Shown here piece after piece: positions 3,203-14,972 of a stretch of DNA of 14,972 nucleotides. The stretch comes from a virus. The notes beneath the pieces are model-generated. The model ran no database searches, was not told the DNA's origin, and was given only the letters and a program-made list of their open reading frames with translations. Every line of letters starts with the position of its first letter. The stretch's first letter is position 1. The stretch is taken from UHGV virus genome UHGV-1739818; one strand, 5' to 3'. The position numbers and the translations under genes were made by a program.

Positions 3203-4078
3203 ATGCCATTACTGCGTGAAGAAGCTGAAAAGCTGTCTAACAACGAACTTGAACAGGGTGTGATCGAAACTATCATCGATCGCGATGACCTGTTTGCCAT
3301 CCTGCCTTTTATGAAAATTAATTCAAAGGCATATCTGTACAACCGTGAAAAAACGCTGAGTGAAGCTACCTTCATCGACGTTAACGACACCATCCCTGAA
3401 GGTGCAGCAACCTTCGAAGAATGCGTTGCGAAACTGCGTATTCTGGCTGGTGACGTAGACGTTGATAAATTCCTGGCGACCACTATGGCCGACACCAACA
3501 ACCAGTTGGCTATTCAGGTTCGTCAGAAAGTTAAAGGTCTGGCTCGTGCGTTCCGTCGCAACCTGATTTTGGGTGACTCCAGCTCCAACAACAAGGCGTT
3601 TGACGGCATTCCACGCCTGATGCACGCAGATCAGAAGATCGATATCGCCGGTGCATCTATGACTTTCTCTATGTTCGACGAACTGGTCGATGCGGTGAAA
3701 GATCTTGGTGCTGACTGCATCATGATGCGTTCAGAGCACCTGCGTGCTTACCGTGCGCTGCTGCGTACAGTAAACGTAGGTCCGTCTGAAATCATGATGG
3801 AGAACTTCGGTCGTCCGATGCTGTGTCATAACGGCGTTCCGTTCATCATCAACGACTTCATCCCGACCGATGCTGGCAAAGCAAGCATCTACTGCCTGCA
3901 TCTGTCAGAAGAGAACGGCGTTACTGGTCTGTATGGCGGCGACAACGCAGGTATCGTTGTTGAAAACATTGGTACTGTACAGAACAAAGACGCAGTACGT
4001 ACCCGTGTGAAGTGGTACTGCTCTCTGGCGAATAAGCACGATAAGGCTATCGCTGCACTGACCAATGTAAAAATTTAA
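3203..4078 (+). CDS. Major capsid protein (putative HK97-fold, no delta domain)
   Basis: 291-aa ORF after the scaffold gene with SD AAAGGGAA; strongly biased codon usage suggesting high expression; followed by an intrinsic terminator. Length fits a capsid protein that relies on a separate scaffold. Confidence 0.7.
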   Translation: MPLLREEAEKLSNNELEQGVIETIIDRDDLFAILPFMKINSKAYLYNREKTLSEATFIDVNDTIPEGAATFEECVAKLRILAGDVDVDKFLATTMADTNNQLAIQVRQKVKGLARAFRRNLILGDSSSNNKAFDGIPRLMHADQKIDIAGASMTFSMFDELVDAVKDLGADCIMMRSEHLRAYRALLRTVNVGPSEIMMENFGRPMLCHNGVPFIINDFIPTDAGKASIYCLHLSEENGVTGLYGGDNAGIVVENIGTVQNKDAVRTRVKWYCSLANKHDKAIAALTNVKI

Positions 4079-4087
4079 TCAGTGTGG

Positions 4088-4105
4088 TAGATAGGTAGTT
4101 ATCTA
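4088..4105. repeat. Inverted repeat TAGATA-N6-TATCTA between capsid stop and terminator
   Basis: tagata (4088-4093) is the reverse complement of tatcta (4100-4105). A related TTATCTA element occurs at 676-682 in the terminase-portal junction. Confidence 0.35.
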
Positions 4106-4114
4106 TGTTAAAGG

Positions 4115-4138
4115 GTGGGCTATACGCCCACTTTTTTT
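4115..4138 (+). terminator. Rho-independent terminator downstream of the major capsid gene
   Basis: GTGGGC (4115-4120), loop TATAC, GCCCAC (4126-4131), followed by T7 (4132-4138). Confidence 0.7.
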
Positions 4139-4151
4139 GGAGGAGCGAGAA

Positions 4152-5072
4152 ATGCCAGAACAAAAGATGAAGATTACGGAAGAGACATTTTCGGATTTTA
4201 CGGGGCATATGTGCCGTGCCGGATTTACCAATTCTATCTCCGATGAACCTTTAACCGAGCGGCAACAAAGTCAGCTATCTGCTTGTTTGCAGGCGGTTCC
4301 CCTCTCCCAATCCGTAAACATAACCCCGGCTTCACCGTCAGTTTTGGTTGGGAAAACTGTTCAACTTAGTGCAGGTATTAGTATGGGTAAGAGTGCCAGT
4401 TCATTCACCTGGAAGTCAGCCAATGACCAAATTGCAACCGTTAACGGCACTGGATTAGTAACTGGCGTAGCACCAGGCAAAGTAAAAATTACTGCAACTG
4501 ATCAGGAAACCCAGCTTTCCGCTTCAGTGGAAGTCACCGTAAATCCGGTAGCCGTTCAATCCGTAACGGTAACGCCAGAATCAACGTCTGTTGAGAAAGG
4601 GAAATCAGTCAGTCTGAAAGCGAATGTTCAGCCGTCAAATGCGACGAATAAGGCTGTTGCCTGGTCTTCCAAAAATGAAGATAAGGCAACGGTAGACCAG
4701 AGCGGGAACGTTACTGGTGTAGAAGTTGGCACTGCGACGATTGAGATCGTTTCCCAAGATGGCAGCAAAAAGGGAACTGCAACGGTGGAAGTAACTGCGC
4801 CTGTTGTGGCTGTTACCGGCGTCGAAATCGACCCAAATAGCACAACCGTTGAGGCAAACAAAACTGTTCAGCTGACCGCAAATGTCGAGCCGGCAGGAGC
4901 AACAAATAAAACCGTTACTTGGGAATCCAAAAATACCGAATTTGCAACGGTGGATAGCGAAACCGGTGTTGTAACTGGCGTTGCGGCTGGTACTGCCACA
5001 ATCGAGGTTACTACCCAAGATGGTAGCCACAAAGCGACAGCGACCGTAGAAGTCACTGCTGCACAGGAATAA
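4152..5072 (+). CDS. Protein with at least three tandem Big_2 (bacterial Ig-like) domains; candidate capsid decoration or virion surface protein
   Basis: ATG at 4152 with GGAGGAG 7 nt upstream (the track start at 4137 is a TTG lying in the terminator T-tract). Repeated segments of type …TATVDQSGNVTGVEVGTATIEIVSQDGSKKGTATVEVTA… are characteristic of Big_2 domains. Confidence 0.7.
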   Translation: MPEQKMKITEETFSDFTGHMCRAGFTNSISDEPLTERQQSQLSACLQAVPLSQSVNITPASPSVLVGKTVQLSAGISMGKSASSFTWKSANDQIATVNGTGLVTGVAPGKVKITATDQETQLSASVEVTVNPVAVQSVTVTPESTSVEKGKSVSLKANVQPSNATNKAVAWSSKNEDKATVDQSGNVTGVEVGTATIEIVSQDGSKKGTATVEVTAPVVAVTGVEIDPNSTTVEANKTVQLTANVEPAGATNKTVTWESKNTEFATVDSETGVVTGVAAGTATIEVTTQDGSHKATATVEVTAAQE

Positions 5073-5080
5073 TCAATATT

Positions 5081-5098
5081 GGGCGGCGAAAGCCGCCC
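5081..5098 (+). other. Stable GNRA-tetraloop hairpin without a U-tract
   Basis: GGGCGGC-GAAA-GCCGCCC, a perfect 7-bp GC stem, 9 nt after the Big_2 gene stop. Followed by ATGTAGAG rather than a T-run, so not a canonical terminator. Confidence 0.4.
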
Positions 5099-5116
5099 AT
5101 GTAGAGAGAATGCGTT

Positions 5117-5551
5117 ATGAAACCAGCAAAAATTGTTTTATTAGAACCGCAATTTTCCGGTTATTCGGGAATGTTGTGCGGCGTTCAGTTCGAGAACGGG
5201 GTGTCCGTAGCGGAGTTGCCTTTTATCGATCAGCAAAGGATTTGTGCCTCAATGCGAGCATCAACAGTCGAGGGCAAAAATGTTTCTCCGTCTGCCGCAT
5301 ACAGTGATCGTGGCGAGTTGACCGCAGACCTGATTACCGAGCCAGCAGCACCTGACATTGTGCCAATGAAACGTGGGACACCAGATGAACCGGCCAAACA
5401 GATCCAGACTTTCACACGAGAAGAGTTGGAGTCAATTGCAGACAATGAAGGCATTGCCGGTCTACGTGTGATTGGTAATCAGGTTGGTGTCAAAGCGAAA
5501 GGAATTGTCGAGATGATTGAAGGCATCCTGAAAGCACAAGGCGGTGAGTAA
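5117..5551 (+). CDS. Hypothetical protein (144 aa)
   Basis: ORF whose stop overlaps the next start (TAATG at 5549-5553), indicating translational coupling; purine-rich stretch upstream. C-terminal 40 aa loosely resemble a helix-extended-helix motif (low confidence). Confidence 0.5.
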   Translation: MKPAKIVLLEPQFSGYSGMLCGVQFENGVSVAELPFIDQQRICASMRASTVEGKNVSPSAAYSDRGELTADLITEPAAPDIVPMKRGTPDEPAKQIQTFTREELESIADNEGIAGLRVIGNQVGVKAKGIVEMIEGILKAQGGE

Positions 5552-6384
5552 TGGCGCAGATCGACTCGTATCGTAGCGGTGAAGCTGTTTCCCTTTCATT
5601 TGCCTTCAACGTGCTGGATATCGAATCTGCTACCTACACAGTAAAGGACAGCACCGGGGCTATTCTCGTTGATGGCGAGCCGCTAGAAATTACCAGCGGT
5701 CAAATGTCGATTCCGGTTGTCGTGTCGGCTGAATATAACCAGCTCTCTGAGAAAGAACGCGATCTGCGGTACGTCATTGTGAAGGCTGTTGCATCGGGTC
5801 TGACGCATGAAGAGCGGCAAATGTATGTTCTGCTGAATAGTTTTGAACTGTCGATACCAGAACAGTCGTTTGCAACTGTCGCTGATGCTCAAATGCAGGC
5901 GATCGATATGCTGAATGGGGACACTTTGCTGTCGGATGGTGAAGGCTTAATGCGCAAGCGTCTCATTGAGGCTACCAGACGAATTAAAACTTTACCGTTC
6001 TCAATCCGCAAAATTCTACGTATCGACTTTGACCGATACGATCGCCCTCAAAATATGCTGAATGTGTATGACATTCCGTGGGGAGCAGATGGAGCGTACC
6101 GGCATGATTTAGTCGATTGGGAAAAGATGACGCAGGAGAAGTTTGAAGAGTTCCCTGACTACTTCAAAGAAGCGTTGATGCTTGCCGTTGTCAACGAAGC
6201 GTGTGAGATCGCAAATGGCAATGATGTTGCCGCAGCACGAGAGGATGGCATTTTGTCAGAATCCATCGGTGAAACAACCAACATGTACCGTACCGGTAAA
6301 GCTGCAAACGTGCATGTGGCTCGTAGTACCTGGCGCTTGCTGGTCAGTTACATCAACAACCGTATGATTGTTCGCCGTGCGTAA
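5551..6384 (+). CDS. Hypothetical structural protein (277 aa); head-completion or connector candidate by position
   Basis: Translationally coupled to the upstream ORF; lies between the capsid module and the adaptor/neck genes. No family recognised by eye. Confidence 0.55.
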   Translation: MAQIDSYRSGEAVSLSFAFNVLDIESATYTVKDSTGAILVDGEPLEITSGQMSIPVVVSAEYNQLSEKERDLRYVIVKAVASGLTHEERQMYVLLNSFELSIPEQSFATVADAQMQAIDMLNGDTLLSDGEGLMRKRLIEATRRIKTLPFSIRKILRIDFDRYDRPQNMLNVYDIPWGADGAYRHDLVDWEKMTQEKFEEFPDYFKEALMLAVVNEACEIANGNDVAAAREDGILSESIGETTNMYRTGKAANVHVARSTWRLLVSYINNRMIVRRA

Positions 6385-6463
6385 CGCCAGTCGCATTATT
6401 TACTTTTGGTCGAAAGGGTTTTTGGCCAGTAATGAGAGCGACCGACAACAACAGAGAGAGAGC

Positions 6464-6770
6464 ATGAATATTTCGTGGCAAACAGAAATTGCGATCTACC
6501 GCTTTGGCGCAAAGAACGTTTACGGCGAGGCGCAATTACAATTCGTCAGGAAGACGAATGTCGGCGTGGTTAAGTTCGAACAGAGTAATGAGAAATCGTC
6601 AGTTCGTGCTGATAGATGCTGTGTTAGTTGTCCCTTTAGAAGCGGCTGTACAACTTGATGATGTGCTGATCCTTGAAGGTCAAAAATTAAAGGTGTCCAG
6701 TGTTCATCGCCGTTGGGGGCTACGAGGAAGACCTGGGCATCTTGAAGTGGGGGCGAATATATGGGTCTGA
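6464..6770 (+). CDS. Head-tail adaptor (head closure) protein, apparently interrupted by a +1 frame change near 6596-6602
   Basis: Frame 2 from ATG 6464 gives MNISWQTEIAIYRFGAKNVYGEAQLQFVRKTNVGVVKFEQSNEKS and then implausible Cys-rich text to the stop at 6658. Frame 0 is implausible upstream but protein-like from about 6600 (QFVLIDAVLVVPLEAAVQLDDVLILEGQKLKVSSVHRRWGLRGRPGHLEVGANIWV) to the stop at 6770. The conceptual fusion is about 100 aa with features typical of small adaptor proteins. Confidence 0.45.
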
Positions 6771-7234
6771 AATACGATGCGCATCAGTTCAAACGTGCGG
6801 GGAATAGACTCAATAACAGCCAGAAAGCATTTAAGCGATATCTTATTCGGGACATGGAAAAGCTGGCGCGTTTGGTTGAGCGTCTCAGCCGTGCAATGGC
6901 CCCGCTGGAAACCGGATCTCTGGAGACAGCCATCTTTGCCAGGGTGATTAAAGAAGGTTATTCAGGGCTGCGCATTGAGCTTTCTGTGTCTGGAGCAAAA
7001 CCACGTCAGGGGCATCCGGGCGTAGAAGTCGGTGACTATGCTAAGTACATGGAGCTGGGTAAATACCGACTCGGTTATCTTTCTCGAATGAAGAACGTGA
7101 CAAACCCACCAATTGCCGGTGTTAAACCTCGTGTTGGGCCACACTTTCTGGAAAGAGCGGTGGAAATTAGCGAGAAGCAGTTCTCAGAAGCGATTCTTGA
7201 GGCTGCAAGAAAAGCCGGTTTTACGAGAGGTTAA
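6761..7234 (+). CDS. Neck/tail-completion protein, HK97 gp10-like (putative)
   Basis: 157-aa ORF with a G-rich SD; contains a YAKYMELG segment resembling the conserved YA.y.E.G of the HK97 gp10 family; in the lambda gpZ position. Confidence 0.55.
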   Translation: MGLKYDAHQFKRAGNRLNNSQKAFKRYLIRDMEKLARLVERLSRAMAPLETGSLETAIFARVIKEGYSGLRIELSVSGAKPRQGHPGVEVGDYAKYMELGKYRLGYLSRMKNVTNPPIAGVKPRVGPHFLERAVEISEKQFSEAILEAARKAGFTRG

Positions 7235-7235
7235 T

Positions 7236-7619
7236 GTGTTTATCGAAGCGTTTGCAAGTTTGATGCAGAAGGCAAAGATTGGCACGGTCGGGACTGACAT
7301 TTTCTGTCACTACTTGCCTGCCAATGTGAAATCTGGCGTCCTGCTTATTAACCCAAATACCGGTATCAGCATCGATCATGAGCTACAGGGCTTTTACCAC
7401 GAATCATTCACAATAATTGTGCGTGGTTCGTCAATTACTACGACGGTTGAGAAAGCCAATAAAATCATTGAGATGTTTCCAGTAGAGGAAACGGAATCTG
7501 GTGGTGTTTATTTTCGACTGGTACGACCGATGGCGATGCCAATCATTTATCCCAAAAATGATGGAGCATTAATAGAAGCAGGCATTCCTGTTGAATTTGC
7601 TGGCTATTTATTGAATTAA
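7236..7619 (+). CDS. Tail terminator / tail completion protein (putative, lambda gpU position)
   Basis: Start placed at GTG 7236, which overlaps the upstream stop (TAATGTG) and has GAGAGG 5 nt upstream. The track start at 7113 would overlap the previous gene by about 120 nt in another frame. Confidence 0.45.
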   Translation: MFIEAFASLMQKAKIGTVGTDIFCHYLPANVKSGVLLINPNTGISIDHELQGFYHESFTIIVRGSSITTTVEKANKIIEMFPVEETESGGVYFRLVRPMAMPIIYPKNDGALIEAGIPVEFAGYLLN

Positions 7620-7640
7620 GTCAATCGGTAAGTATATACT
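7611..7640 (+). promoter_or_regulatory. Candidate sigma70-like promoter upstream of the major tail gene
   Basis: TTGAAT (7611-7616), then TATATA (7633-7638, spacer 16) or TATACT (7635-7640, spacer 18). The -10 region lies inside the 16-bp palindrome. Confidence 0.3.
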
Positions 7641-7643
7641 TAC
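7628..7643. repeat. Perfect 16-bp palindrome GTAAGTATATACTTAC (TAAGT-N4-ACTTA core)
   Basis: Read directly; 50 nt upstream of the major tail start codon. Candidate operator for a dimeric DNA-binding protein. Confidence 0.6.
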
Positions 7644-7693
7644 TGTTAGCGCAATGAATGCGTAGAATTAACGGAAAAAGGAGTTTTCCATCA

Positions 7694-8440
7694 ATGTCTA
7701 ATACCCATGTAAAAAACATCAAACTTGGTGCCTGTAAGGTGTCGTTTGGTGGTGTGGATTTGGGTTACACCAAAGGTGGTGTTCAGGTTGAAGTAGCCAC
7801 TGAAACGCTGAAAGTCACTGTCGACCAGCACGGCCAGACAATTATGTCAGAGCTGGTGCAGGGTCGTAACATTACCATTACTGCGCCGCTGGCCGAGTCT
7901 GTGTTGAAAAATATGGTCGATCTGATGCCGGGGTCTACTCTGAACGAAGACGACAACGCTGTGACCATCACTTCCGCACAGGGTGTCAACCTGATCGACG
8001 TAGCCAAAGAGCTGGTTCTGACTCCGCAGGACACTACCGACTACGTTCTGACCATTCCGAAAGCTGCGACCGCAGGTAACTTCACCATGACTTACCAGTC
8101 TGATGATGTTCGTGTGTTCTCTGTTCAGTTCAGCGCATACCCTGATGACGAAGGCGTTCTGGGAAGAATGAGCGGCCCTAAACCGGTAAAAACCGTGTCG
8201 ATCAAACCGGAATCTCCAACTGTAAAAGCAGGGGAGACTGTGCAACTGACAGCCGAAATCACTCCAGCTGATGCCGCAGACAAAACCGGTGTTTGGGAAT
8301 CCGAAGACCAGGAAAAGGCCACGGTAGATCAAACGGGTCTGGTACGTGGTGTGGCGCAGGGTTCTACAAATATCTCCTTCACCAGCAATAGCGGTGGTAA
8401 GAAGGCTACTAAGTCAGTAACGATTAACTCCGCAGGTTAA
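7694..8440 (+). CDS. Major tail (tube) protein with C-terminal Big_2 Ig-like domain
   Basis: ATG 7694 with AAGGAG 10 nt upstream (the track start at 7658 lacks an SD). C-terminal about 90 aa is a Big_2-type domain (…VQLTAEITPADAADKTGVWESEDQEKATVDQTGLVRGVAQGSTNISFT…), as in lambda gpV. Located before the G/GT pair. Confidence 0.7.
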   Translation: MSNTHVKNIKLGACKVSFGGVDLGYTKGGVQVEVATETLKVTVDQHGQTIMSELVQGRNITITAPLAESVLKNMVDLMPGSTLNEDDNAVTITSAQGVNLIDVAKELVLTPQDTTDYVLTIPKAATAGNFTMTYQSDDVRVFSVQFSAYPDDEGVLGRMSGPKPVKTVSIKPESPTVKAGETVQLTAEITPADAADKTGVWESEDQEKATVDQTGLVRGVAQGSTNISFTSNSGGKKATKSVTINSAG

Positions 8441-8453
8441 TCAGTAATTAAGC

Positions 8454-8479
8454 AGAGGCTCAGGATGGGCCTCTCTTTT
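8454..8479 (+). terminator. Candidate weak intrinsic terminator after the major tail gene
   Basis: AGAGGC (8454-8459), 9-nt loop, GCCTCT (8469-8474), then CTTTT. Short U-tract, so possibly partial. Confidence 0.35.
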
Positions 8480-8495
8480 AAAAGGATTTTAACCA

Positions 8496-8813
8496 ATGAC
8501 CAAATTACTCGATCTCGATTCCATTCTGCCTCCGAAGAAAAGCATCAAATTTGGCGGTCAGGAATATCCCATCGTTGAAATGACGGTAGGTCTGTTCGTT
8601 TCCATCAAGCAGATGGAAGGCAAAGATCTCATGAACATGTCTCCTGTTGAGCAAGTGACAGCTTATGCAGATCTGGTTCGTAAGGTTATCCCTTCAGTAC
8701 CTGACGAAGTTCTTGAAAAACTGACTGTTCCGCAACTCCAGCAGATCTTCACCTTCGCTATGGAAGTGATTGATGAAGAAAACGAAAAAGCGGCTGGCGA
8801 AGGGGCAAAGTAA
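8496..8813 (+). CDS. Tail assembly chaperone (lambda gpG-like)
   Basis: 105-aa acidic-C-terminus ORF immediately upstream of the tape measure gene, with AAGGA 9 nt upstream; its 3' end overlaps a -1 frame ORF. Confidence 0.7.
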   Translation: MTKLLDLDSILPPKKSIKFGGQEYPIVEMTVGLFVSIKQMEGKDLMNMSPVEQVTAYADLVRKVIPSVPDEVLEKLTVPQLQQIFTFAMEVIDEENEKAAGEGAK

Positions 8814-9163
8814 TTTCCCGCGATGAATCCGGGACAAGGACCGTCTCAATAGATCTCGGATTCTATTTCAGTCGTGTAGTTGCTCACTACGCCGTGTCGC
8901 CATTAGAGCTACTGAACGTTCCTCTCACGATGTTCTGGATGCTCAGTCGCAATATAGACCGTCTGCGTGCGGAAGAGGATGTCCGCAACTTACAAGTCGC
9001 TCGTGCGTCCCAGGCGGATGGCGAGGCTGTGAAGGCGTTCATGGAGGGTTTGCAACTCAGGATTGGAAGACCAGTCGTAACAGATAAAGTCTACGATCCA
9101 AGCCAGGATAAGGCAGACCCTGACGCCAAAGAGCAACTGATGCAAATATTTGGCAGAGGATGA
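8777..9163 (+). CDS. T-domain reading frame of a G-T tail assembly chaperone fusion, expressed by -1 programmed frameshift from 8496..8813
   Basis: The -1 frame is open from 8777 (after TGA at 8774-8776) to 9163 and overlaps the last 37 nt of the G-like ORF. There is no SD before its first internal start (GTG 8894). Its stop overlaps the tape measure start region. Confidence 0.6.
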   Translation, partial: RKRKSGWRRGKVISRDESGTRTVSIDLGFYFSRVVAHYAVSPLELLNVPLTMFWMLSRNIDRLRAEEDVRNLQVARASQADGEAVKAFMEGLQLRIGRPVVTDKVYDPSQDKADPDAKEQLMQIFGRG

Positions 9164-9170
9164 CAAGGGA

Positions 9171-10856
9171 ATGTCACAAAACGTAGAGTTTATCCTGTCG
9201 CTGGAAGACAAACAGTTTACAGCGTCAATCGATCGTGCGGGGAAACTGCTTACTCGATTTGGTGAGCAGGTAACAAAGCCTGCTCAAAAAATCCAAACCT
9301 TTGAACGCTCTTTGGGTTCGGTCGCCCGTATCATTGGCGTTCTGGAAAGCAAGCTCGATTCTACGGCAGATAAACTACAGGATGTAGCTGCCGGTTTTGA
9401 GCTTGCTTCAGATGCTACGCGTAAAATGCGTGGCAACATCACCAGCCTCAATTCTGGTCTTAAAGCCCTGATTGAGCGCGTCGATACGACAACTTCTTCA
9501 GTAGATAAACTCACCGCGTCATTACGTAAAGTGCAATCAGAGCTAAATGATTTCTCTGATTGGGCGACCTATGCAAGCAAAAGCGCAAGCCGCTTTGGTA
9601 CGGAGGTCAAAGAAGCCTCTGCGTCCGTGAGTGGCATGAATACGCGCCTTAATACCACGACGAAGCGACTCAGTAATTGGGGTGTCACAACGAGTCAGGC
9701 TGCCGAGGGACTGAAAAAGGTTCGTGAGCAGATGGACGAAGTTATCGGACGTCAGCAACTGATTAGCAAGCCGGTACGCGTTCGTACATCTGGAAGTGGC
9801 GATGGTGGTAGCGGGCGGCGTAGCGGCGCTTCTGGCCATAGCGGTAAAAGTAACGAAGGAGGTATGTTCTCTGGCCTTCGTGGCAACATTTTCCTGCTTG
9901 GCGAGATCGGAGATGCAGCCAGAACGGTTACTGACATCATGTTTGGGTGGCAGAAGCCTATTGTTGAAGCTGCGGCCGAAATGGAACGTATGCGGGTGAT
10001 GCTTCGAGGGTTGAATAAGGAGAAGTCCAACCCGGGCCAGGCTGCCGCTGATGATATGAAGTACATCGTAGACATGGCGCAAAATGCGCCGTTCGCGATG
10101 CAGGCGTTAACAGATTCCTTCGTGAAGTTTCGTTCTGCTGGCTTAGATCCAACCGATGGTTCTCTGAAGGCGCTGGTGGACTCCGTTGCTCGTTTTGGTG
10201 GTGATAGTGAGCTGTTGAAACGTGCGGCTGTGGCCGTTCAGCAGATGTCCGGTAAGGGCGTTGTGTCAATGGAAGAGCTACGTCAGCAATTAGGTGAAGC
10301 CGTTCCTAACGCGATGCAGGCAATGGCAGACGCCGCAGGCATCACTATGGGGGAACTGACTAAAGCCGTTGCCAGCGGTACGGTTGAGGCAAAACAGGCG
10401 TTGTCTCTGATGTTTGTTGGTCTGCGTGCGGAGAATGAGAACGCAGCGAAAGACATGATGCAAACCTACACAGGTGCGCTGGCGCAACTTCAGACGTCAT
10501 TCACGTTATTTGCTGATCGGGTTGGTCAGGCCGGATATCTGGATTCTCTATCGAAGGGGATGAAAGAACTGGCTTCAATCATGAATAGCGCCGAAGGGAT
10601 TTCGTTTGCCAATTCTTTAGGCTCGGGGTTAACGACGGCAATCGATGGGTTGCGTCAGCTTGCTCAATGGTTAGCAAAGAACCAAGAGCTGGTAATTAAT
10701 CTCGGTAAGGTCGTGGCCGCGATGGTTGCGTTCAAACTGATGCGAGCAGGGATCATGGGGGTAGTTGGCGCAGGCAGCCAGATGGTTAGCACCTTTGCCA
10801 CGATGGCGACCGCCATACAGACTCCATTTAACCTCGGCGCTACAGCAGTAAGATGA
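9171..10856 (+). CDS. Tail tape measure protein, N-terminal/major segment
   Basis: ATG 9171 with GAGGA 10 nt upstream (the track start at 9150 is a TTG without SD). Coiled-coil N-terminus, Gly/Ser-rich linker, and a region typical of tape-measure core domains (…NAPFAMQALTDSFVKFRSAGLDPTDG…); hydrophobic C-terminal segment. Confidence 0.8.
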   Translation: MSQNVEFILSLEDKQFTASIDRAGKLLTRFGEQVTKPAQKIQTFERSLGSVARIIGVLESKLDSTADKLQDVAAGFELASDATRKMRGNITSLNSGLKALIERVDTTTSSVDKLTASLRKVQSELNDFSDWATYASKSASRFGTEVKEASASVSGMNTRLNTTTKRLSNWGVTTSQAAEGLKKVREQMDEVIGRQQLISKPVRVRTSGSGDGGSGRRSGASGHSGKSNEGGMFSGLRGNIFLLGEIGDAARTVTDIMFGWQKPIVEAAAEMERMRVMLRGLNKEKSNPGQAAADDMKYIVDMAQNAPFAMQALTDSFVKFRSAGLDPTDGSLKALVDSVARFGGDSELLKRAAVAVQQMSGKGVVSMEELRQQLGEAVPNAMQAMADAAGITMGELTKAVASGTVEAKQALSLMFVGLRAENENAAKDMMQTYTGALAQLQTSFTLFADRVGQAGYLDSLSKGMKELASIMNSAEGISFANSLGSGLTTAIDGLRQLAQWLAKNQELVINLGKVVAAMVAFKLMRAGIMGVVGAGSQMVSTFATMATAIQTPFNLGATAVR

Positions 10857-11860
10857 GCTTCTCCAGCCTATCTCAGTCCATTTTGAAAGATATCACCAAT
10901 ATGGTCGTGAAGTCGCAAATCACGCTGCCTCTAATGAACATGTTGGGGATGGGAACCACCGCAGCTGGTAGTTCACAGAGTGGCAATTTGCTCACTGGAG
11001 TTGCTTCCGCCGTTGCCAATCAAGGGGTACGAATGGGCAACACTGTTAACGGCGACAAGTCGGTGGGAGAAGCCACGAAGGAGACGTCCAGTTCGGTAAC
11101 TGGATTGGGGCAAACAACACAGCAGACCACCAGCGCAATTGGCACTGCAACAAATGCGATTGGTAGCTGGGTATCAGGGCTATTTGATAGCACCGAAGCC
11201 AAAGATGCTGAAACAAAAGCAGTGAAGGACTCCATCTTCTCGATGCAGAACCTCAGCTCTGTTACCGGCGCTCTGTCTGCCGCGTTTGCAATGCTTGGAG
11301 CTAATGCTTCCGGCTCTGGTAATAAGTGGTTGAATTTCGGCGCGACAGTTGCATCTGGTTTGGTTTCAGTATGGGCTGGTGGTGGATTCGATGGATTGAT
11401 GTCCGGTTCTTCTGGCTCAACTTCCGGGTTCAACAATCTGACCAGTTCTGCTGCCGATGGCACGAATGGTATTCCTGCAATTCCGAAGTTTGCAAATGGT
11501 GGCATATTCGGAAAAGACGGCGTGATCCCGCTCCGGGCATACCAGAAAGGCGGTATCGCCAACTCACCTCAATTGGCGTTGTTTGGGGAAGGCGATATGA
11601 ATGAGGCGTATGTTCCATTGCCTGATGGTCGAACAATCCCTGTAACGCTCAGTACCGATGGTATGAGTGGAGGAGGAAATGTTCTTTCTCCGGTATCAAT
11701 TGAGATCAACGTCCATAGTGACGGTAGCACAACTGAATCCGGCGATACAGAAAGCATATGGAACAATGCCGCTCAACGGATGAAAGCAATCGCGCTTGAG
11801 ACTATCGCTCAAGAGAAACGCCCTGGCGGATCACTCAACCCAAACACTCAACGTAACTAA
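10853..11860 (+). CDS. Tape measure protein, C-terminal segment, encoded as a separate ORF in the -1 frame
   Basis: Starts at ATG 10853 overlapping the upstream stop (ATGA). Gly/Ser/Thr-rich with a FANGGIFGKDGVIPL…GEGDMNEAYVPLPDGRTIPV block resembling conserved tape-measure C-terminal motifs. Confidence 0.65.
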   Translation: MSFSSLSQSILKDITNMVVKSQITLPLMNMLGMGTTAAGSSQSGNLLTGVASAVANQGVRMGNTVNGDKSVGEATKETSSSVTGLGQTTQQTTSAIGTATNAIGSWVSGLFDSTEAKDAETKAVKDSIFSMQNLSSVTGALSAAFAMLGANASGSGNKWLNFGATVASGLVSVWAGGGFDGLMSGSSGSTSGFNNLTSSAADGTNGIPAIPKFANGGIFGKDGVIPLRAYQKGGIANSPQLALFGEGDMNEAYVPLPDGRTIPVTLSTDGMSGGGNVLSPVSIEINVHSDGSTTESGDTESIWNNAAQRMKAIALETIAQEKRPGGSLNPNTQRN

Positions 11861-11865
11861 CTATC

Positions 11866-11887
11866 GACTGCCCCGACCGGGGCAGTC
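11866..11887 (+). other. GC-rich hairpin after the tape measure stop (9-bp stem, no U-tract)
   Basis: GACTGCCCC (11866-11874), loop GACC, GGGGCAGTC (11879-11887). Followed by TCACAAGG rather than a T-run. Confidence 0.45.
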
Positions 11888-11902
11888 TCACAAGGATGTG
11901 AG
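11887..11902 (+). promoter_or_regulatory. Hairpin presenting the Shine-Dalgarno of the gpM-like gene in its loop
   Basis: CTCACA (11887-11892), loop AGGA (11893-11896), TGTGAG (11897-11902), then ATG at 11903. Confidence 0.35.
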
Positions 11903-12238
11903 ATGGAAAGACAAACGTTTAATTGGTATCCAGATTACGAATCTGAAAAAAGCGTAAAACCGAATGTAACGGTACTTAATTTTGGTGATGACTACGAGCA
12001 GCGACAGGCTCAAGGTCTTAATCGTATTAAAGAAGAATGGTCGTTAACCTTTACCAGATCATACAACGAAATTAATGCAATCGATGACTTCCTGACTGAG
12101 CGAGCAGGCGTTGAGTCGTTCTATTGGGTTAATCCAAGAGGAAAACGGATTGTAGTTGTATGTGACAGTCATACGGTCAAGCGATATCAGGGGTACTGTG
12201 TCTTAACAGCTACATTCAGACAAGTATTTGAGGCTTAA
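11903..12238 (+). CDS. Minor tail protein, lambda gpM homologue
   Basis: 111 aa; pattern F.W…V.V..FGD.Y.QR…GLN……F…FL.E..G…F.W.NP…V.C……F.QV matches lambda gpM as I recall it; position immediately after the tape measure. Confidence 0.8.
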   Translation: MERQTFNWYPDYESEKSVKPNVTVLNFGDDYEQRQAQGLNRIKEEWSLTFTRSYNEINAIDDFLTERAGVESFYWVNPRGKRIVVVCDSHTVKRYQGYCVLTATFRQVFEA

Positions 12239-12275
12239 GTATCTGGATAAGTAAGTACTAATTTACTATCATTGT

Positions 12276-12298
12276 GGCGCTGACAGGATGTTAGCGCC
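12276..12298 (+). other. Hairpin in the M-L intergenic spacer
   Basis: GGCGCT (12276-12281), 11-nt loop, AGCGCC (12293-12298), followed by TACTTATTTC. Confidence 0.3.
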
Positions 12299-12320
12299 TA
12301 CTTATTTCAAGGATGAAACA

Positions 12321-13019
12321 ATGGGAATTAAAGCTGATATTCAGAGCTTATCTCCCTCTGCACTCATTGAGTTGTTCGTACTGGATATGTCGAACACAAC
12401 TTCAGGGGGGAAGCTATTCTTCCACGCCGGAACAAACGAACTGATGCAACCGGTCGTCTGGCAAGGAGTGACATACGAGCCGTGGCCAATCAAAGCATCA
12501 GGCTTTGACAAAACTGGCCAGGGAACGTTGCCACGTCCAAAAATTCAGGTATCGAACTTTGCCGGAACTGTCTCTGCGGAAGTTCAGGCAAACGACGATC
12601 TTGTTGGCTGCCGCATTATTCGCAAGATGACGCTGGCTCGCTTCCTCGATGCCGTTAATTTTAAAGACGGCAACCCAACAGCAGATCCAAACCAACATTT
12701 CCCGGATGAAATGTGGTTTATCGAACAGAAAACTCTCGAAACTCATCAGGTTGTCGAGTTTGAATTGTCCAGTGTGTTCGATTTGATGGGGGTGCAACTG
12801 CCGTATCGTCAGATCATTAAAAACACCTGCCCGTGGAAATACCGAGGGCCAGAATGCGGCTATACCGGTCCATATTTCGACAAAAATAACCAGCAGACGT
12901 CTATGTCTGGTGCTGATTACTGCACAAAACGTTATGACGCCTGTAATGCGCGTCGGAATTATTTTGCCAACGGAGTGATCCATTTTGGCGGGTTTATTGG
13001 AGCTACGCGATATGGGTAA
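12321..13019 (+). CDS. Minor tail protein, lambda gpL homologue (tail tip, Fe-S cysteine motif)
   Basis: ATG 12321 with AAGGA 7 nt upstream (the track start at 12288 adds 11 poorly supported residues). Blocks VVWQGVTYEPWPIKASGFDKTGQGTLPRPKIQVSNF, RFLDAVNF.DGNP.ADPNQ and CPWKYRGPECGYTGP…C…C match lambda gpL as I recall it. Confidence 0.85.
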   Translation: MGIKADIQSLSPSALIELFVLDMSNTTSGGKLFFHAGTNELMQPVVWQGVTYEPWPIKASGFDKTGQGTLPRPKIQVSNFAGTVSAEVQANDDLVGCRIIRKMTLARFLDAVNFKDGNPTADPNQHFPDEMWFIEQKTLETHQVVEFELSSVFDLMGVQLPYRQIIKNTCPWKYRGPECGYTGPYFDKNNQQTSMSGADYCTKRYDACNARRNYFANGVIHFGGFIGATRYG

Positions 13020-13809
13020 TAAAGCAATCCCTGAGCTTGGCTCTGATGTTATGCAGCAAATCTATCTCTGCGCCATAAATCGCTACCCTAATGAAGCGTG
13101 TGGCTTTCTGGTGAGAACTAATGGCGACAAATATCGCTTTATGGAAGCGCGAAATGTTTCGGAGAACCCGCAGAACACTTTTGTAATGCACGTTGACGAC
13201 ATTATGGCGGCGGAGGATGCAGGTGACGTAATCGCAATCTGGCATTCACATACTGATGAATCAGCAGAAGCATCTGATGCCGATCGTGCAGGCTGTGAAG
13301 CGACGGAAGTTCCGTGGATGATTCTGGCTATTCGCAAGAATGTTGAGGGAGATGCCCCTTTCCATTTTAGCGAGATGAATGTGATCACACCTGATGGTTT
13401 CGAAATGCCATACCTGGGTAGACCGTATGTATTTGGCGTATTCGATTGCTGGATGTTGTGTCGGGACTATTTGAAGCGTGAGTTTAACGTCGAGCTTAAC
13501 CCGAACGCACACCTGCATATTCCATCGTGGTACACCGGCGATAACGACATTCTCGACCAGAACTACCGAAACGAGGGATTGGTACGGCTTGCACCTGGAA
13601 CAGAGCCTCAACGTGGGGACGTCTTCTTTATTCAATACGGAAAAATGCCTGACCACTGTGCGGTTTATATCGGCGATGGAATGATTCTTCATCACCAGAT
13701 CGACCGCCTTAGTTGTCGTGCTTATTACGGCGGGATGTATCAGAAACATACGACGCATCACTTGCGTCACAGAGACTTGCTCAAGGGAGATGAGACGTGT
13801 CTGAGTTAG
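13012..13809 (+). CDS. Tail assembly protein, lambda gpK homologue (MPN/JAMM plus NlpC/P60 domains)
   Basis: ATG 13012 overlaps the gpL-like stop, GGAG 9 nt upstream. N-terminal YPNEACGFLV and an intact JAMM motif HSHTDESAEASDAD (H-x-H-x7-S-x2-D, 13243-13284); C-terminal FDCWM Cys plus downstream His typical of NlpC/P60. Confidence 0.85.
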   Translation: MGNKAIPELGSDVMQQIYLCAINRYPNEACGFLVRTNGDKYRFMEARNVSENPQNTFVMHVDDIMAAEDAGDVIAIWHSHTDESAEASDADRAGCEATEVPWMILAIRKNVEGDAPFHFSEMNVITPDGFEMPYLGRPYVFGVFDCWMLCRDYLKREFNVELNPNAHLHIPSWYTGDNDILDQNYRNEGLVRLAPGTEPQRGDVFFIQYGKMPDHCAVYIGDGMILHHQIDRLSCRAYYGGMYQKHTTHHLRHRDLLKGDETCLS

Positions 13810-14387
13810 TTCATGTGCAGCTTGGCGGCCCTATGGCCAAACATTTTGGCCGCCACTGGCATCTAAAGGTGCGTAATACAAAACAGGCTCTGGATTTAAT
13901 TGAGGCCAACAAGCCTGGGTTTAAAGCATGGATGAAGCGCAATATCAAAACCTATGACAGATACCACATCCAGATCACCAATAAACAGGGCCACAAGTGG
14001 TCTGTGGACGAGAGTGAATATCAGATGATGGGGCAGTCTGACAATATTGCAAAAATCCGCATTACCCCTGTTCCGCGAGGAAGTGGTGGATCTGCTTTTG
14101 GATGGTTTCAGACGGTTGTTGGAGCAGTATTAATGGTTGCCTCGATATGGGTGCCCGCTCTTGCGCCTCTCGGTTTGTCACTGATGATGGGCGGTATAGC
14201 GCAAATCATATCTCCGCAAGCCACTAACGAAAGTGTGAGGCAGGCGGATAACTCGAACTCTTATTACTTTGATGGACCTCAAAACACAACAAACCAGGGG
14301 AACCCTGTACAGCTTATCTATGGCGAGGAAATTTTAGTTGGCTCACAGGTCGTGAGTTCTTCTATCACCATCGACCAGCTTATGTAA
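13797..14387 (+). CDS. Tail assembly protein, lambda gpI homologue
   Basis: GTG start overlapping the gpK-like stop, GGGAG upstream. Central hydrophobic segment plus C-terminal …NSYYFDGPQNTTNQGNPVQLIYGEEILVGSQVVSSSITIDQ resemble lambda gpI; standard position. Confidence 0.8.
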   Translation: MSELVHVQLGGPMAKHFGRHWHLKVRNTKQALDLIEANKPGFKAWMKRNIKTYDRYHIQITNKQGHKWSVDESEYQMMGQSDNIAKIRITPVPRGSGGSAFGWFQTVVGAVLMVASIWVPALAPLGLSLMMGGIAQIISPQATNESVRQADNSNSYYFDGPQNTTNQGNPVQLIYGEEILVGSQVVSSSITIDQLM

Positions 14388-14404
14388 TCAAGGATTTTTT
14401 GGAC

Positions 14405-14972
14405 ATGGAACAGTTCAAGAAGAAAAAATTACCGCTTCTTATTGCCGGTGCTGGTGGCAAGAAAAGTAAAAGCTCCAGCCGTACCCCGGTTGAAGCTGAT
14501 GATACTGTCAATTCTCGTGCTATGGCAGCCATCCTCGACCTTCTTGGCGAGGGGGTTATCGGTGGCCTGGTAAATGGCGCAAAGTCGATCTTCATCGACG
14601 ATTTACCGATCTTGAATGAAGATGGCTCTTCCAACTTCAGCGGTATTACATGGGATTTTCGTGACGGCTCACAAGATCAGACGCCAATGGCTGGTTTTGA
14701 TTTTGTCGAAACGCCTAAGTCCGTAAATATTCAGCTTAAAAAAACACACGACGTTACGGTTTCAATCGATAACGATGAAGCTGATCGCGTTCGTGTCATC
14801 ATGAAATTCCCCTCTTTACGTAGCGTTGATAAAAGCTCTGGCGATACAAATGGCACTACGGTGAAGTACAAATTCCAGATCGCCAACGCAGACGCAACAT
14901 TTTCTGATGTAGTGGCAGAAGGTGAGAAAAGCGTTGATATCACGCTAACGGCAAAGAAAACCGGCGTGTATT
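14405..14972 (+). CDS. Tail tip / central fibre protein, lambda gpJ homologue, N-terminal part (3' end beyond window)
   Basis: ATG 14405 with AAGGA 10 nt upstream, open to the window end (not in the ORF track because there is no stop). Translation MEQFKKKKLPLLIAGAGGKKSKSSSRTPVEADDTVNSRAMAAILDLLGEGVIGGLVNGAKSIFIDD… parallels the lambda gpJ N-terminus. Confidence 0.8.
   Translation, partial: MEQFKKKKLPLLIAGAGGKKSKSSSRTPVEADDTVNSRAMAAILDLLGEGVIGGLVNGAKSIFIDDLPILNEDGSSNFSGITWDFRDGSQDQTPMAGFDFVETPKSVNIQLKKTHDVTVSIDNDEADRVRVIMKFPSLRSVDKSSGDTNGTTVKYKFQIANADATFSDVVAEGEKSVDITLTAKKTGVY

What the first reader, a model, noticed from the sequence alone, without database searches (positions are those of the whole stretch)
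10829..10860. Tape measure protein is encoded as two abutting ORFs joined by an ATGA overlap after a rare AGA codon
A typical tape-measure N-terminal and core region (9171..10856) ends at AGA-TGA, and a typical tape-measure C-terminal region (10853..11860) begins at the overlapping ATG in the -1 frame. The -1 frame is closed by a TAA at 10829-10831, so any frame change must occur within 10832-10853. The combined length of about 900 aa would fit a normal siphovirus tail, whereas the first ORF alone (about 560 aa) would imply a short tail. This could be a genuinely split tape measure with coupled reinitiation, recoding at the rare codon plus stop, or a second indel.
Basis: partly seen in the sequence, partly recalled or inferred. 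Interest (0 to 1): 0.5.

Follow-up and report, generated by a model that had tools for sequence, protein, structure and literature searches.

The report
Tape measure gene broken by deletion
The two abutting "tape measure" ORFs are the two ends of one normally 1,520-residue gene of an SSU5-like E. coli phage-plasmid that has lost about 1.9 kb from its middle out of frame, so this is an ordinary broken gene and not a split or recoded one.

Summary
ORF 9171..10856 ends in AGA-TGA, and ORF 10853..11860 starts at the overlapping ATG.

The cause is a deletion. The window is the virion module of an SSU5/Cyrano-like E. coli phage-plasmid, 98.9% identical to complete plasmids. Every complete relative examined has one tape measure ORF of 1,517-1,526 aa. 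None of 201 plasmid records or 228 E. coli genomes spans the window's junction. The window lacks 1,882 nt (1,888 against Cyrano; length = 1 mod 3), equal to codons 561-1188.

The AGA codon, the TGA stop and the "start" ATG (internal Met1189/1190) are all by-products of the junction. The junction also cuts through the conserved Tape_meas_lam_C domain. There is no slippery site.

A second out-of-frame deletion (38 nt, at 6615/6616) breaks a 114-aa gene. The other 15 genes are intact. An ENA metagenome contig carries both deletions, so the element is probably real and tail-defective.

The right-hand breakpoint coincides, within a base or two, with an IS1203/IS629 end in a contig that is 100% identical over ORF2. 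It also coincides with the right end of a different, larger deletion in another contig. This suggests IS excision with adjacent deletion, which is an inference.

Interest is low.

The parts
9171..10856 (+). 5' remnant of the tape measure gene: native codons 1-560, then a junction-made AGA (Arg) and TGA stop
   Evidence: Matches phrog_1292 positions 1-565 of 1523 and Pfam TMP_3 at residues 264-451. Collinear with L003/L004 9409..11089 and with the Cyrano CDS.
10850..10852 (.). Deletion junction. The left arm ends at 10849-10851 and the right arm begins at 10850-10852, sharing a 2-nt AA microhomology. Relatives have 1,882 nt (L003/L004) or 1,888 nt (Cyrano) here.
   Evidence: BLAST arms are window 6608-10851 = L003 6846-11089 and window 10850-14972 = L003 12970-17074. 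No record spans the junction.
10853..11860 (+). 3' remnant of the tape measure gene (codons 1189-1523 of L004, 1190-1525 of Cyrano). The ATG is an internal Met of the intact protein.
   Evidence: Matches phrog_1292 positions 1193-1523. It has no Pfam hit because the deletion removes the first half of Tape_meas_lam_C, which covers residues 1150-1215 of the intact protein. It is 100% identical in DNA to L006, L007 and L008.
6464..6770 (+). Second broken gene: the 114-aa phrog_911 gene, frameshifted by a 38-nt deletion at 6615/6616 between imperfect repeats GCTGATAG and GCTGTTTG
   Evidence: L006 has the same 38-nt gap but keeps the other repeat copy.
8496..9163 (+). Context: a pair resembling the tail assembly chaperones G and T, directly upstream of the tape measure gene (8496..8813, and a -1 frame ORF open over 8777..9163). 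Intact.
   Evidence: Matches phrog_893 and phrog_1131. Both are identical in protein to L004.
11903..14387 (+). Context: intact downstream tail-tip genes resembling lambda M, L, K and I
   Evidence: Annotation of L003/L004, Pfam labels, and no internal stops with 0-2 aa differences per gene.

Best explanation
The window is the head-and-tail gene block of an SSU5/Cyrano-like E. coli phage-plasmid. Its single tape measure gene, about 4.57 kb and 1,523 codons, has suffered an internal deletion of 1,882 nt covering codons 561-1188. The deletion length is 1 mod 3, so the upstream frame runs into the TGA that lies inside the original ...AAG ATG AGC... sequence. The rest of the gene then survives as an ORF that happens to begin at internal Met1189. 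The ATGA overlap, the 'rare AGA' codon and the apparent two-gene layout are by-products of this one junction. The gene is a pseudogene.

A second out-of-frame deletion of 38 nt breaks a neighbouring virion gene. Together the two lesions predict an element that can no longer build tails and persists only as a plasmid. This functional prediction is inferred, not shown.

The probable origin of the large deletion is also inferred, at roughly 45% confidence. An IS1203/IS629 (IS3-family) element inserted at ...GGGA-AGA|TGAGC. It was later lost together with flanking DNA on its left, and the ends were rejoined at 1-3 nt of microhomology. This is the IS-excision-enhancer (IEE) / microhomology-mediated end-joining type of event described for E. 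coli.
For: SHOWN.
(1) The Cyrano and SSU5 records each annotate one tape measure CDS, of 4,578 and 4,581 nt. Plasmids pYLPM7a and p503025_100 have 4,554 and 4,572 nt. The 90% cluster around this protein has 2,182 members, and typical members are 1,507-1,523 aa.
(2) The window aligns to these relatives in two ungapped arms that abut at 10850-10851, with 1,882-1,888 nt missing.
(3) A 501-nt probe across the junction matches 201 plasmid records and 228 E. coli genomes. Every listed match (40 rows per search) stops at probe position 251/252, and no record has a place covering 80% or more of the probe.
(4) Profile coordinates are 1-565 for ORF1 and 1193-1523 for ORF2 of phrog_1292. Pfam Tape_meas_lam_C is bisected.
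(5) There are no long repeats at the deletion ends in the intact gene, so this is not a repeat collapse.
(6) ENA contig ERZ1745534 NODE_1094 (L006) matches window 3561-14972 without gaps at 99.84%, so it has both deletions.
(7) The other 15 genes are intact, with mostly synonymous differences, so the lesions are recent.
(8) Other natural relatives also carry broken tape measure genes: an IS insertion in L010, a 665+870 aa frameshift in L012, a fusion of the tape measure gene to tail-tip gene J in L013, and a 5-nt insertion in L014.

FOR THE IS ORIGIN.
- Logan contig L007 is 100% identical to the window over the 1,008 nt of ORF2. It carries 29 nt of an IS1203/IS629 terminal repeat ending ...GGCGGTTCA directly against AGATGAGC, which is window 10851.
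- An independent contig, L005, has a different and larger deletion: window 9070 is joined to 10850-10853 through GGAAGA microhomology, so it shares the same right end.
- An O157 copy of IS1203 has the target duplication AGA.
- The same IS type sits elsewhere in the tape measure gene of pM160133_p3.
- The literature reports that IEE-dependent excision of IS629 gives deletions from a few nt to more than 40 kb adjacent to the IS, joined at microhomology, and that IEE is present in more than 33% of E. coli assemblies (PMC9943667; bioRxiv 10.1101/2023.06.07.543989).
Against: - L006 may not be independent of the window. Both end at the same base, and L006 has only 2.9x coverage. The junction may therefore rest on few reads from one sample or cohort.
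- The contigs that share the right-hand breakpoint were retrieved by asking for the exact 335-aa product. That search can only return contigs broken just upstream of Met1189, so the coincidence is weaker than it looks. I estimate chance at roughly 0.004-0.02 for L005 plus L007 within a retrieval window of about 50 nt. This is an estimate, not a computed statistic.
- No complete genome or plasmid has the IS at this site, and pattern scans of three large collections were negative.
- The left flank of the IS in the L007 sample was not seen.
- The host's IEE status is unknown.
- The 38-nt deletion has no link to an IS.
Confidence: 0.88

Rival explanations
1. It is a real out-of-frame deletion, but it arose by ordinary illegitimate (microhomology) recombination or a replication error. 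No IS was involved, and the shared right end with L005 and L007 is a coincidence or a retrieval bias.
For: Only 2 nt of microhomology are present and no IS remnant lies at the junction. The retrieval selects for breaks just upstream of Met1189. The IS is not found at this site in any complete record. The 38-nt deletion in the same element needs no IS.
Against: Three independent structures end within 1-3 nt of each other: the window/L006 deletion, the L005 deletion and the L007 IS end. L007 is 100% identical to the window over the adjacent 1,008 nt.
Confidence: 0.42
2. It is an assembly or library artefact: a chimeric read or mis-join in a low-coverage metagenome. The real plasmid would then have an intact tape measure gene.
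For: L006 has 2.9x coverage. The window and L006 end at the same base and may come from the same or sister read sets. At the 38-nt junction the two assemblies differ at 6612 and 6614 in a way that looks like alternative gap placement. The junction is absent from all other collections.
Against: A de Bruijn assembler cannot join arms that share only 2 nt unless reads span the junction. There are no repeats to collapse. Two assemblies give the same junction. An independent sample (L005) has a related deletion with the same right end.
Confidence: 0.07
3. It is a working two-piece tape measure. ORF1 terminates at UGA and ribosomes reinitiate at the overlapping AUG. The two polypeptides together, or ORF2 alone, would then support assembly of a shorter tail.
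For: The ATGA overlap is the classic geometry for termination-reinitiation. In-frame tape measure deletions are known to give shorter tails (general knowledge from lambda gpH).
Against: The arrangement is not conserved in any relative. The split bisects Tape_meas_lam_C. 627 codons are missing. No Shine-Dalgarno sequence precedes the ATG; the upstream sequence is gctacagcagtaag. A second virion gene is frameshifted in the same element. A ruler protein needs covalent continuity between the tip-bound C-terminus and the N-terminus; this last point is inference.
Confidence: 0.03
4. Programmed -1 ribosomal frameshifting or stop-codon recoding at AGA-UGA fuses the two ORFs into a protein of about 895 aa.
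For: ORF2 is in the -1 frame, and a rare AGA codon precedes the stop.
Against: There is no X XXY YYZ heptamer anywhere in 10800-10856. The -1 frame is open for only 7 codons before the ATG. AGA is a hybrid of bases from original codons 561, 1188 and 1189. The arrangement is not conserved in relatives.
Confidence: 0.01

Closest known systems
Tape measure protein of Escherichia phage Cyrano (pLF82, OV696614, CYRAN_15) and Salmonella phage SSU5 (SSU5_015); phrog_1292
   Same: ORF1 and ORF2 are 98-100% identical to residues 1-560 and 1190-1525 of the Cyrano protein. The synteny is the same: chaperone-like genes upstream, and genes resembling lambda M, L, K and I downstream.
   Different: The known genes are single ORFs of 1,525/1,526 aa, and Cyrano virions have 259-nm tails. 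The window lacks codons 561-1188/1189 and is out of frame.
IEE-promoted excision of IS629/IS1203 with adjacent deletions in E. coli (Kusumoto et al. 2011, as cited in PMC9943667; Calvo et al. 2023)
   Same: An IS of this type sits at the same base in a near-identical relative. The deletions have one fixed end and a variable other end. No IS is left behind. The junctions have 1-6 nt of microhomology.
   Different: The ancestor-descendant relation, the left IS junction and the presence of iee in the host are not shown. The described cases were chromosomal or on test plasmids, not in phage-plasmid tail genes.
Decay of phage-plasmids into defective elements or plasmids
   Same: Virion genes are inactivated while the replicon persists. 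Relatives show other tape measure lesions: L010, L012, L013 and L014. The abstract of PMC12977533 mentions hybrid or defective elements.
   Different: Only the 15-kb virion block is visible here. Persistence as a plasmid is inferred.
Lambda gpH in-frame deletion mutants, where tail length is proportional to tape measure length
   Same: An internal part of the ruler is removed while both termini are kept.
   Different: Those deletions are in frame and give shorter but functional tails (own knowledge, not tested here). This deletion is out of frame and cuts into the conserved C-terminal domain.

Membership tests
SSU5-like siphovirus tape measure protein (phrog_1292; Pfam TMP_3 + Tape_meas_lam_C) | N-terminal or core TMP_3 domain | tested here: met
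   PF20155 matches ORF1 at E = 1.1e-28, residues 264-451. phrog_1292 matches at positions 1-565.
SSU5-like siphovirus tape measure protein (phrog_1292; Pfam TMP_3 + Tape_meas_lam_C) | Complete Tape_meas_lam_C domain near the C-terminus | tested here: not met
   The domain covers residues 1150-1215 of intact L004 protein. ORF2 starts at residue 1189 and has no Pfam hit.
SSU5-like siphovirus tape measure protein (phrog_1292; Pfam TMP_3 + Tape_meas_lam_C) | One continuous ORF of about 1,520 codons | tested here: not met
   The window has 561 + 335 aa in different frames, and 1,882 nt are missing. Relatives are single ORFs.
SSU5-like siphovirus tape measure protein (phrog_1292; Pfam TMP_3 + Tape_meas_lam_C) | Position between the tail chaperone genes and the tail-tip genes resembling lambda M, L, K and I | tested here: met
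Programmed -1 ribosomal frameshift | Slippery heptamer X XXY YYZ inside the window where both frames are open (10832-10853) | tested here: not met
   No heptamer was found in 10800-10856.
Programmed -1 ribosomal frameshift | Two-frame arrangement conserved in relatives | tested here: not met
   0 of 201 plasmid records and 0 of 228 genomes span the junction.
Translationally coupled split gene (stop/start overlap) | Overlapping stop and start codons (ATGA) | tested here: met
   Positions 10853-10856. The sequence pre-exists in-frame as AAG ATG AGC in intact genes.
Translationally coupled split gene (stop/start overlap) | Split conserved in orthologues and located at a domain boundary | tested here: not met
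IS-excision-associated deletion (IS3 family, IEE/MMEJ type) | An IS of a responsive family documented at the breakpoint in a close relative | tested here: met
   In L007 the IS1203/IS629 end abuts AGATGAGC, and the adjacent 1,008 nt are 100% identical to the window.
IS-excision-associated deletion (IS3 family, IEE/MMEJ type) | One deletion end fixed at the IS boundary with the other end variable, and short microhomology at the joint | tested here: met
   The window deletion (1,882 nt, AA microhomology) and the L005 deletion (left end at window 9070, GGAAGA microhomology) share the right end. The retrieval bias is noted.
IS-excision-associated deletion (IS3 family, IEE/MMEJ type) | IEE and an active transposase in the host, and an IS-bearing ancestor of this very lineage | not testable with these tools
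   Only a 15-kb contig is available, and reads cannot be accessed.

The most novel reading that the evidence does not exclude
The 561-aa and 335-aa fragments might both be made, the second by termination-reinitiation at AUGA, and still cooperate as a two-piece ruler giving a shortened tail. Alternatively, the retained C-terminal fragment might be kept because it serves the plasmid in some other way. Either case would be a natural split tape measure.
Probability: 0.03. Interest if true: 0.6.

Novelty: already known. Interest (0 to 1): 0.15.

Why it matters
The main value is for annotation. These two ORFs should be labelled as one tape measure pseudogene, not as a split or recoded gene. The element should be treated as a probably tail-defective phage-plasmid.

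There is minor biological interest. It is one more example of virion-gene decay in SSU5-like phage-plasmids, which are common in clinical E. coli. It is also a possible case of IS629/IS1203 excision scars driving that decay. If confirmed, this would link IEE activity to the conversion of phage-plasmids into plain plasmids.

Tried and rejected
- Exact-pattern scans for the deletion junction in genome contigs, viral contigs and metagenome contigs found nothing.
- Scans for the IS-to-ORF2 junction in the same three collections found nothing.
- A chimeric IS+ORF2 probe against complete E. coli genomes and PLSDB plasmids found no record with the IS at this site.
- An exact look-up of the window's 561-aa ORF1 and of the 64-aa truncated product of the 114-aa gene found no record. 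The window's own source contig was therefore not found.
- The search for homologous proteins with ORF1 returned only proteins of 976 aa or less, mostly partial ones from draft assemblies. Full-length proteins were not listed, so it could not be used to count split versus intact forms.
- The 912-aa Klebsiella hit looked like a natural split (912 + 599 aa with an ATGA overlap). It proved to be a single contig with 5 extra nt relative to 309 Klebsiella plasmids that carry one gene.
- The listing of cluster members placed unrelated 277-aa proteins in ORF2's cluster. I ignored this.
- I rejected repeat-mediated collapse because the intact gene has no repeats longer than 25 nt and none at the breakpoints.
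- I rejected recoding because no slippery site is present.
Full report
**The observation.** The sequence is as described. A + strand ORF, with its ATG at 9171, runs to ...GCA GTA AGA TGA. The TGA is at 10854-10856. A 335-codon ORF starts at the ATG at 10853-10855, so the two share ATGA. The TAA at 10829-10831 closes the second frame upstream. ORF2 is in the -1 frame relative to ORF1.

**What the window is.** The window is 98.9% identical over its whole length to the virion module of complete E. coli plasmids such as pYLPM7a and p503025_100. The 3-kb tape-measure region (9000-12000) is 99.1% identical to Escherichia phage Cyrano and 80.5% identical to Salmonella phage SSU5. These are SSU5-like phage-plasmids. 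The gene order is terminase, portal, capsid, connector genes, tail terminator, Ig-like tail tube, two small chaperone-like genes, tape measure, then genes resembling lambda M, L, K, I and J.

**What relatives have at this locus.** Each relative has one tape measure gene:
- 4,578 nt in Cyrano
- 4,581 nt in SSU5
- 4,554 nt in pYLPM7a
- 4,572 nt in p503025_100

The 90%-identity protein cluster has 2,182 members, typically 1,507-1,523 aa. The Cyrano paper gives the protein as 1,525 aa and reports virions with 259 +/- 12 nm tails (PMC9928086).

**The lesion.**
- Window 6608-10851 aligns without gaps to L003 6846-11089. Window 10850-14972 aligns to L003 12970-17074.
- The same break appears against Cyrano and SSU5.
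- 1,882 nt are missing (1,888 against Cyrano). The length is 1 mod 3, and the arms share only AA.
- In intact genes the left side reads ...GCA GTA ACT CGA... (A V T R). The right side reads ...AAC GGG AAG ATG AGC TTC... (N G K M S F).
- The joint GTA-A|G-ATGAGC is therefore read as GTA AGA TGA.
- AGA is built from one base each of original codons 561, 1188 and 1189.
- TGA lies inside the original ATG-AGC.
- The "start" of ORF2 is internal Met1189 (Met1190 in Cyrano).
- On the phrog_1292 profile, ORF1 covers positions 1-565 and ORF2 covers 1193-1523 of 1523.
- Pfam Tape_meas_lam_C spans residues 1150-1215 of the intact protein. The deletion bisects it, and ORF2 alone has no Pfam hit.

**Is the arrangement shared?** No. 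A 501-nt probe centred on the junction hits 201 plasmid records and 228 of 5,426 complete E. coli genomes. All listed matches stop at probe position 251/252. No record has a place covering 80% or more of the probe. Exact junction patterns are absent from three large contig collections. In 309 Klebsiella relatives the gene is also single.

**Is it real?**
- The intact gene has no repeat at either breakpoint. A k-mer assembler cannot create this joint unless reads span it.
- An ENA metagenome contig, ERZ1745534 NODE_1094 (L006), matches window 3561-14972 without gaps and with 18 mismatches. It therefore carries both this deletion and the 38-nt one.
- There are caveats. L006 has 2.9x coverage and ends at the same base as the window, so the two may derive from the same or related samples.
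- I rate an artefact at about 7%.

**State of the rest of the module.**
- A second out-of-frame deletion of 38 nt, at 6615/6616, lies between the imperfect repeats GCTGATAG and GCTGTTTG. It breaks a conserved 114-aa gene, phrog_911.
- The other 15 genes have no internal stops and mostly synonymous differences from p503025_100. The damage is therefore recent, on an otherwise selected module.
- Two disabling lesions in virion genes predict a tail-defective element that survives as a plasmid. This is an inference.
- Relatives show similar sporadic damage: an IS1203-type insertion in pM160133_p3, a 665+870 aa frameshift, a fusion of the tape measure gene to tail-tip gene J, and a 5-nt insertion.

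**How the deletion probably arose.** I looked up the exact 335-aa product, which returned five contigs.
- L007 and L008 are 100% identical to the window over ORF2.
- L007 begins with 29 nt that are the terminal inverted repeat of IS1203/IS629. That 31-nt sequence (the 29 IS bases plus two flanking bases) has 11,002 places in 1,772 E. coli genomes. It is annotated as IS1203 in O157 and ends ...GGCGGTTCA. In L007 it lies directly against AGATGAGC, which is window 10851.
- L008 and L009 are contigs that start at ATGAGC and GATGAGC. This is expected if a repeat sits there, although the retrieval forces it.
- L005 comes from another run. It lacks the 38-nt deletion and has a larger tape measure deletion that joins window 9070 to 10850-10853 through GGAAGA. 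It shares the same right end.

A fixed end at an IS boundary, a variable other end, short microhomology and no IS left behind match published work. That work describes IEE-dependent excision of IS629, with adjacent deletions from a few nt to more than 40 kb, repaired by microhomology-mediated end joining. IEE occurs in more than a third of E. coli assemblies (PMC9943667; bioRxiv 10.1101/2023.06.07.543989).

The retrieval method selects for breaks just upstream of Met1189, which weakens the coincidence. No complete record has the IS at this site (scans 35-37). I therefore give the IS origin about 45%. The alternative is an IS-independent microhomology deletion.

**Recoding and coupling.**
- No X XXY YYZ heptamer lies in 10800-10856.
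- No Shine-Dalgarno sequence precedes the ATG.
- Nothing about the arrangement is conserved in relatives.
- A fused or reinitiated product would still lack 627 codons and half of a conserved domain.
- I rate a functional two-piece tape measure at about 3% and programmed frameshifting at about 1%.

**Verdict.** However, this is a 1.9-kb out-of-frame deletion of a 1,523-codon gene, not a split or recoded 900-aa gene. It is a known kind of thing, a deletion pseudogene in a decaying phage-plasmid. Interest is low. The only mildly new angle is the possible IS-excision scar.

Noticed in passing
window 6464-6770 (junction 6615/6616): A 38-nt out-of-frame deletion sits in a conserved 114-aa gene (phrog_911, function unknown, located between the head-completion and tail-terminator genes). 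It lies between the imperfect 8-nt repeats GCTGATAG and GCTGTTTG.
   Followed up: partly
window 6612 and 6614, compared with L006 3052 and 3054: The window and ENA contig L006 have the same 38-nt gap but keep different copies of the imperfect repeat: ATAG in the window and TTTG in L006. Possible causes are independent slippage events, mismatch correction, or different gap handling by two assemblers of related reads. This is unexplained.
   Followed up: partly
window 8496-9163: A chaperone pair resembling lambda G and T lies here: 8496..8813 (phrog_893) and a -1 frame ORF open from 8777 to 9163 (phrog_1131). The overlap contains the A-run CGAAAAAGCG at 8783-8792. This is probably the usual G/GT programmed -1 frameshift. 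It has no strict XXXYYYZ heptamer.
   Followed up: partly
L007 1-31; L010 10145-11454: IS1203/IS629-type elements have hit the tape measure gene of these phage-plasmids at least twice. One insertion is in complete plasmid pM160133_p3, with target duplication TCG. The other is at the window's breakpoint in Logan run SRR15058710.
   Followed up: yes
L005 9998-10001 (equivalent to window 9070 joined to 10850-10853): A contig from SRR4321823 lacks the whole 5' three-quarters of the tape measure gene and part of the T-like gene. The right breakpoint is the same and the joint has GGAAGA microhomology. It does not carry the 38-nt deletion.
   Followed up: yes
L012, L013, L014: Other sporadic tape measure lesions occur in relatives. 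L012 is a 665+870 aa frameshift in GCA_040188945.1. L013 is a fusion of the tape measure gene to tail-tip gene J, removing the genes resembling lambda M, L, K and I, in GCA_907166305.1. L014 is a Klebsiella contig split into 912+599 aa with its own ATGA overlap, caused by 5 extra nt.
   Followed up: partly
window 14972 (end) = L006 11412 (end): The window and the ENA contig stop at the same base inside the gene resembling lambda tail-tip gene J. This suggests both are whole contigs ending at the same assembly-graph branch, which could reflect strain variation in the host-range gene. The window is probably a complete 14,972-nt metagenome contig.
   Followed up: no
window 7694-8440: The Ig-like tail tube gene has 67 nt differences from p503025_100 but only 9 aa changes. 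Neighbouring genes have 0-6 nt differences. This looks like a recombination patch.
   Followed up: no
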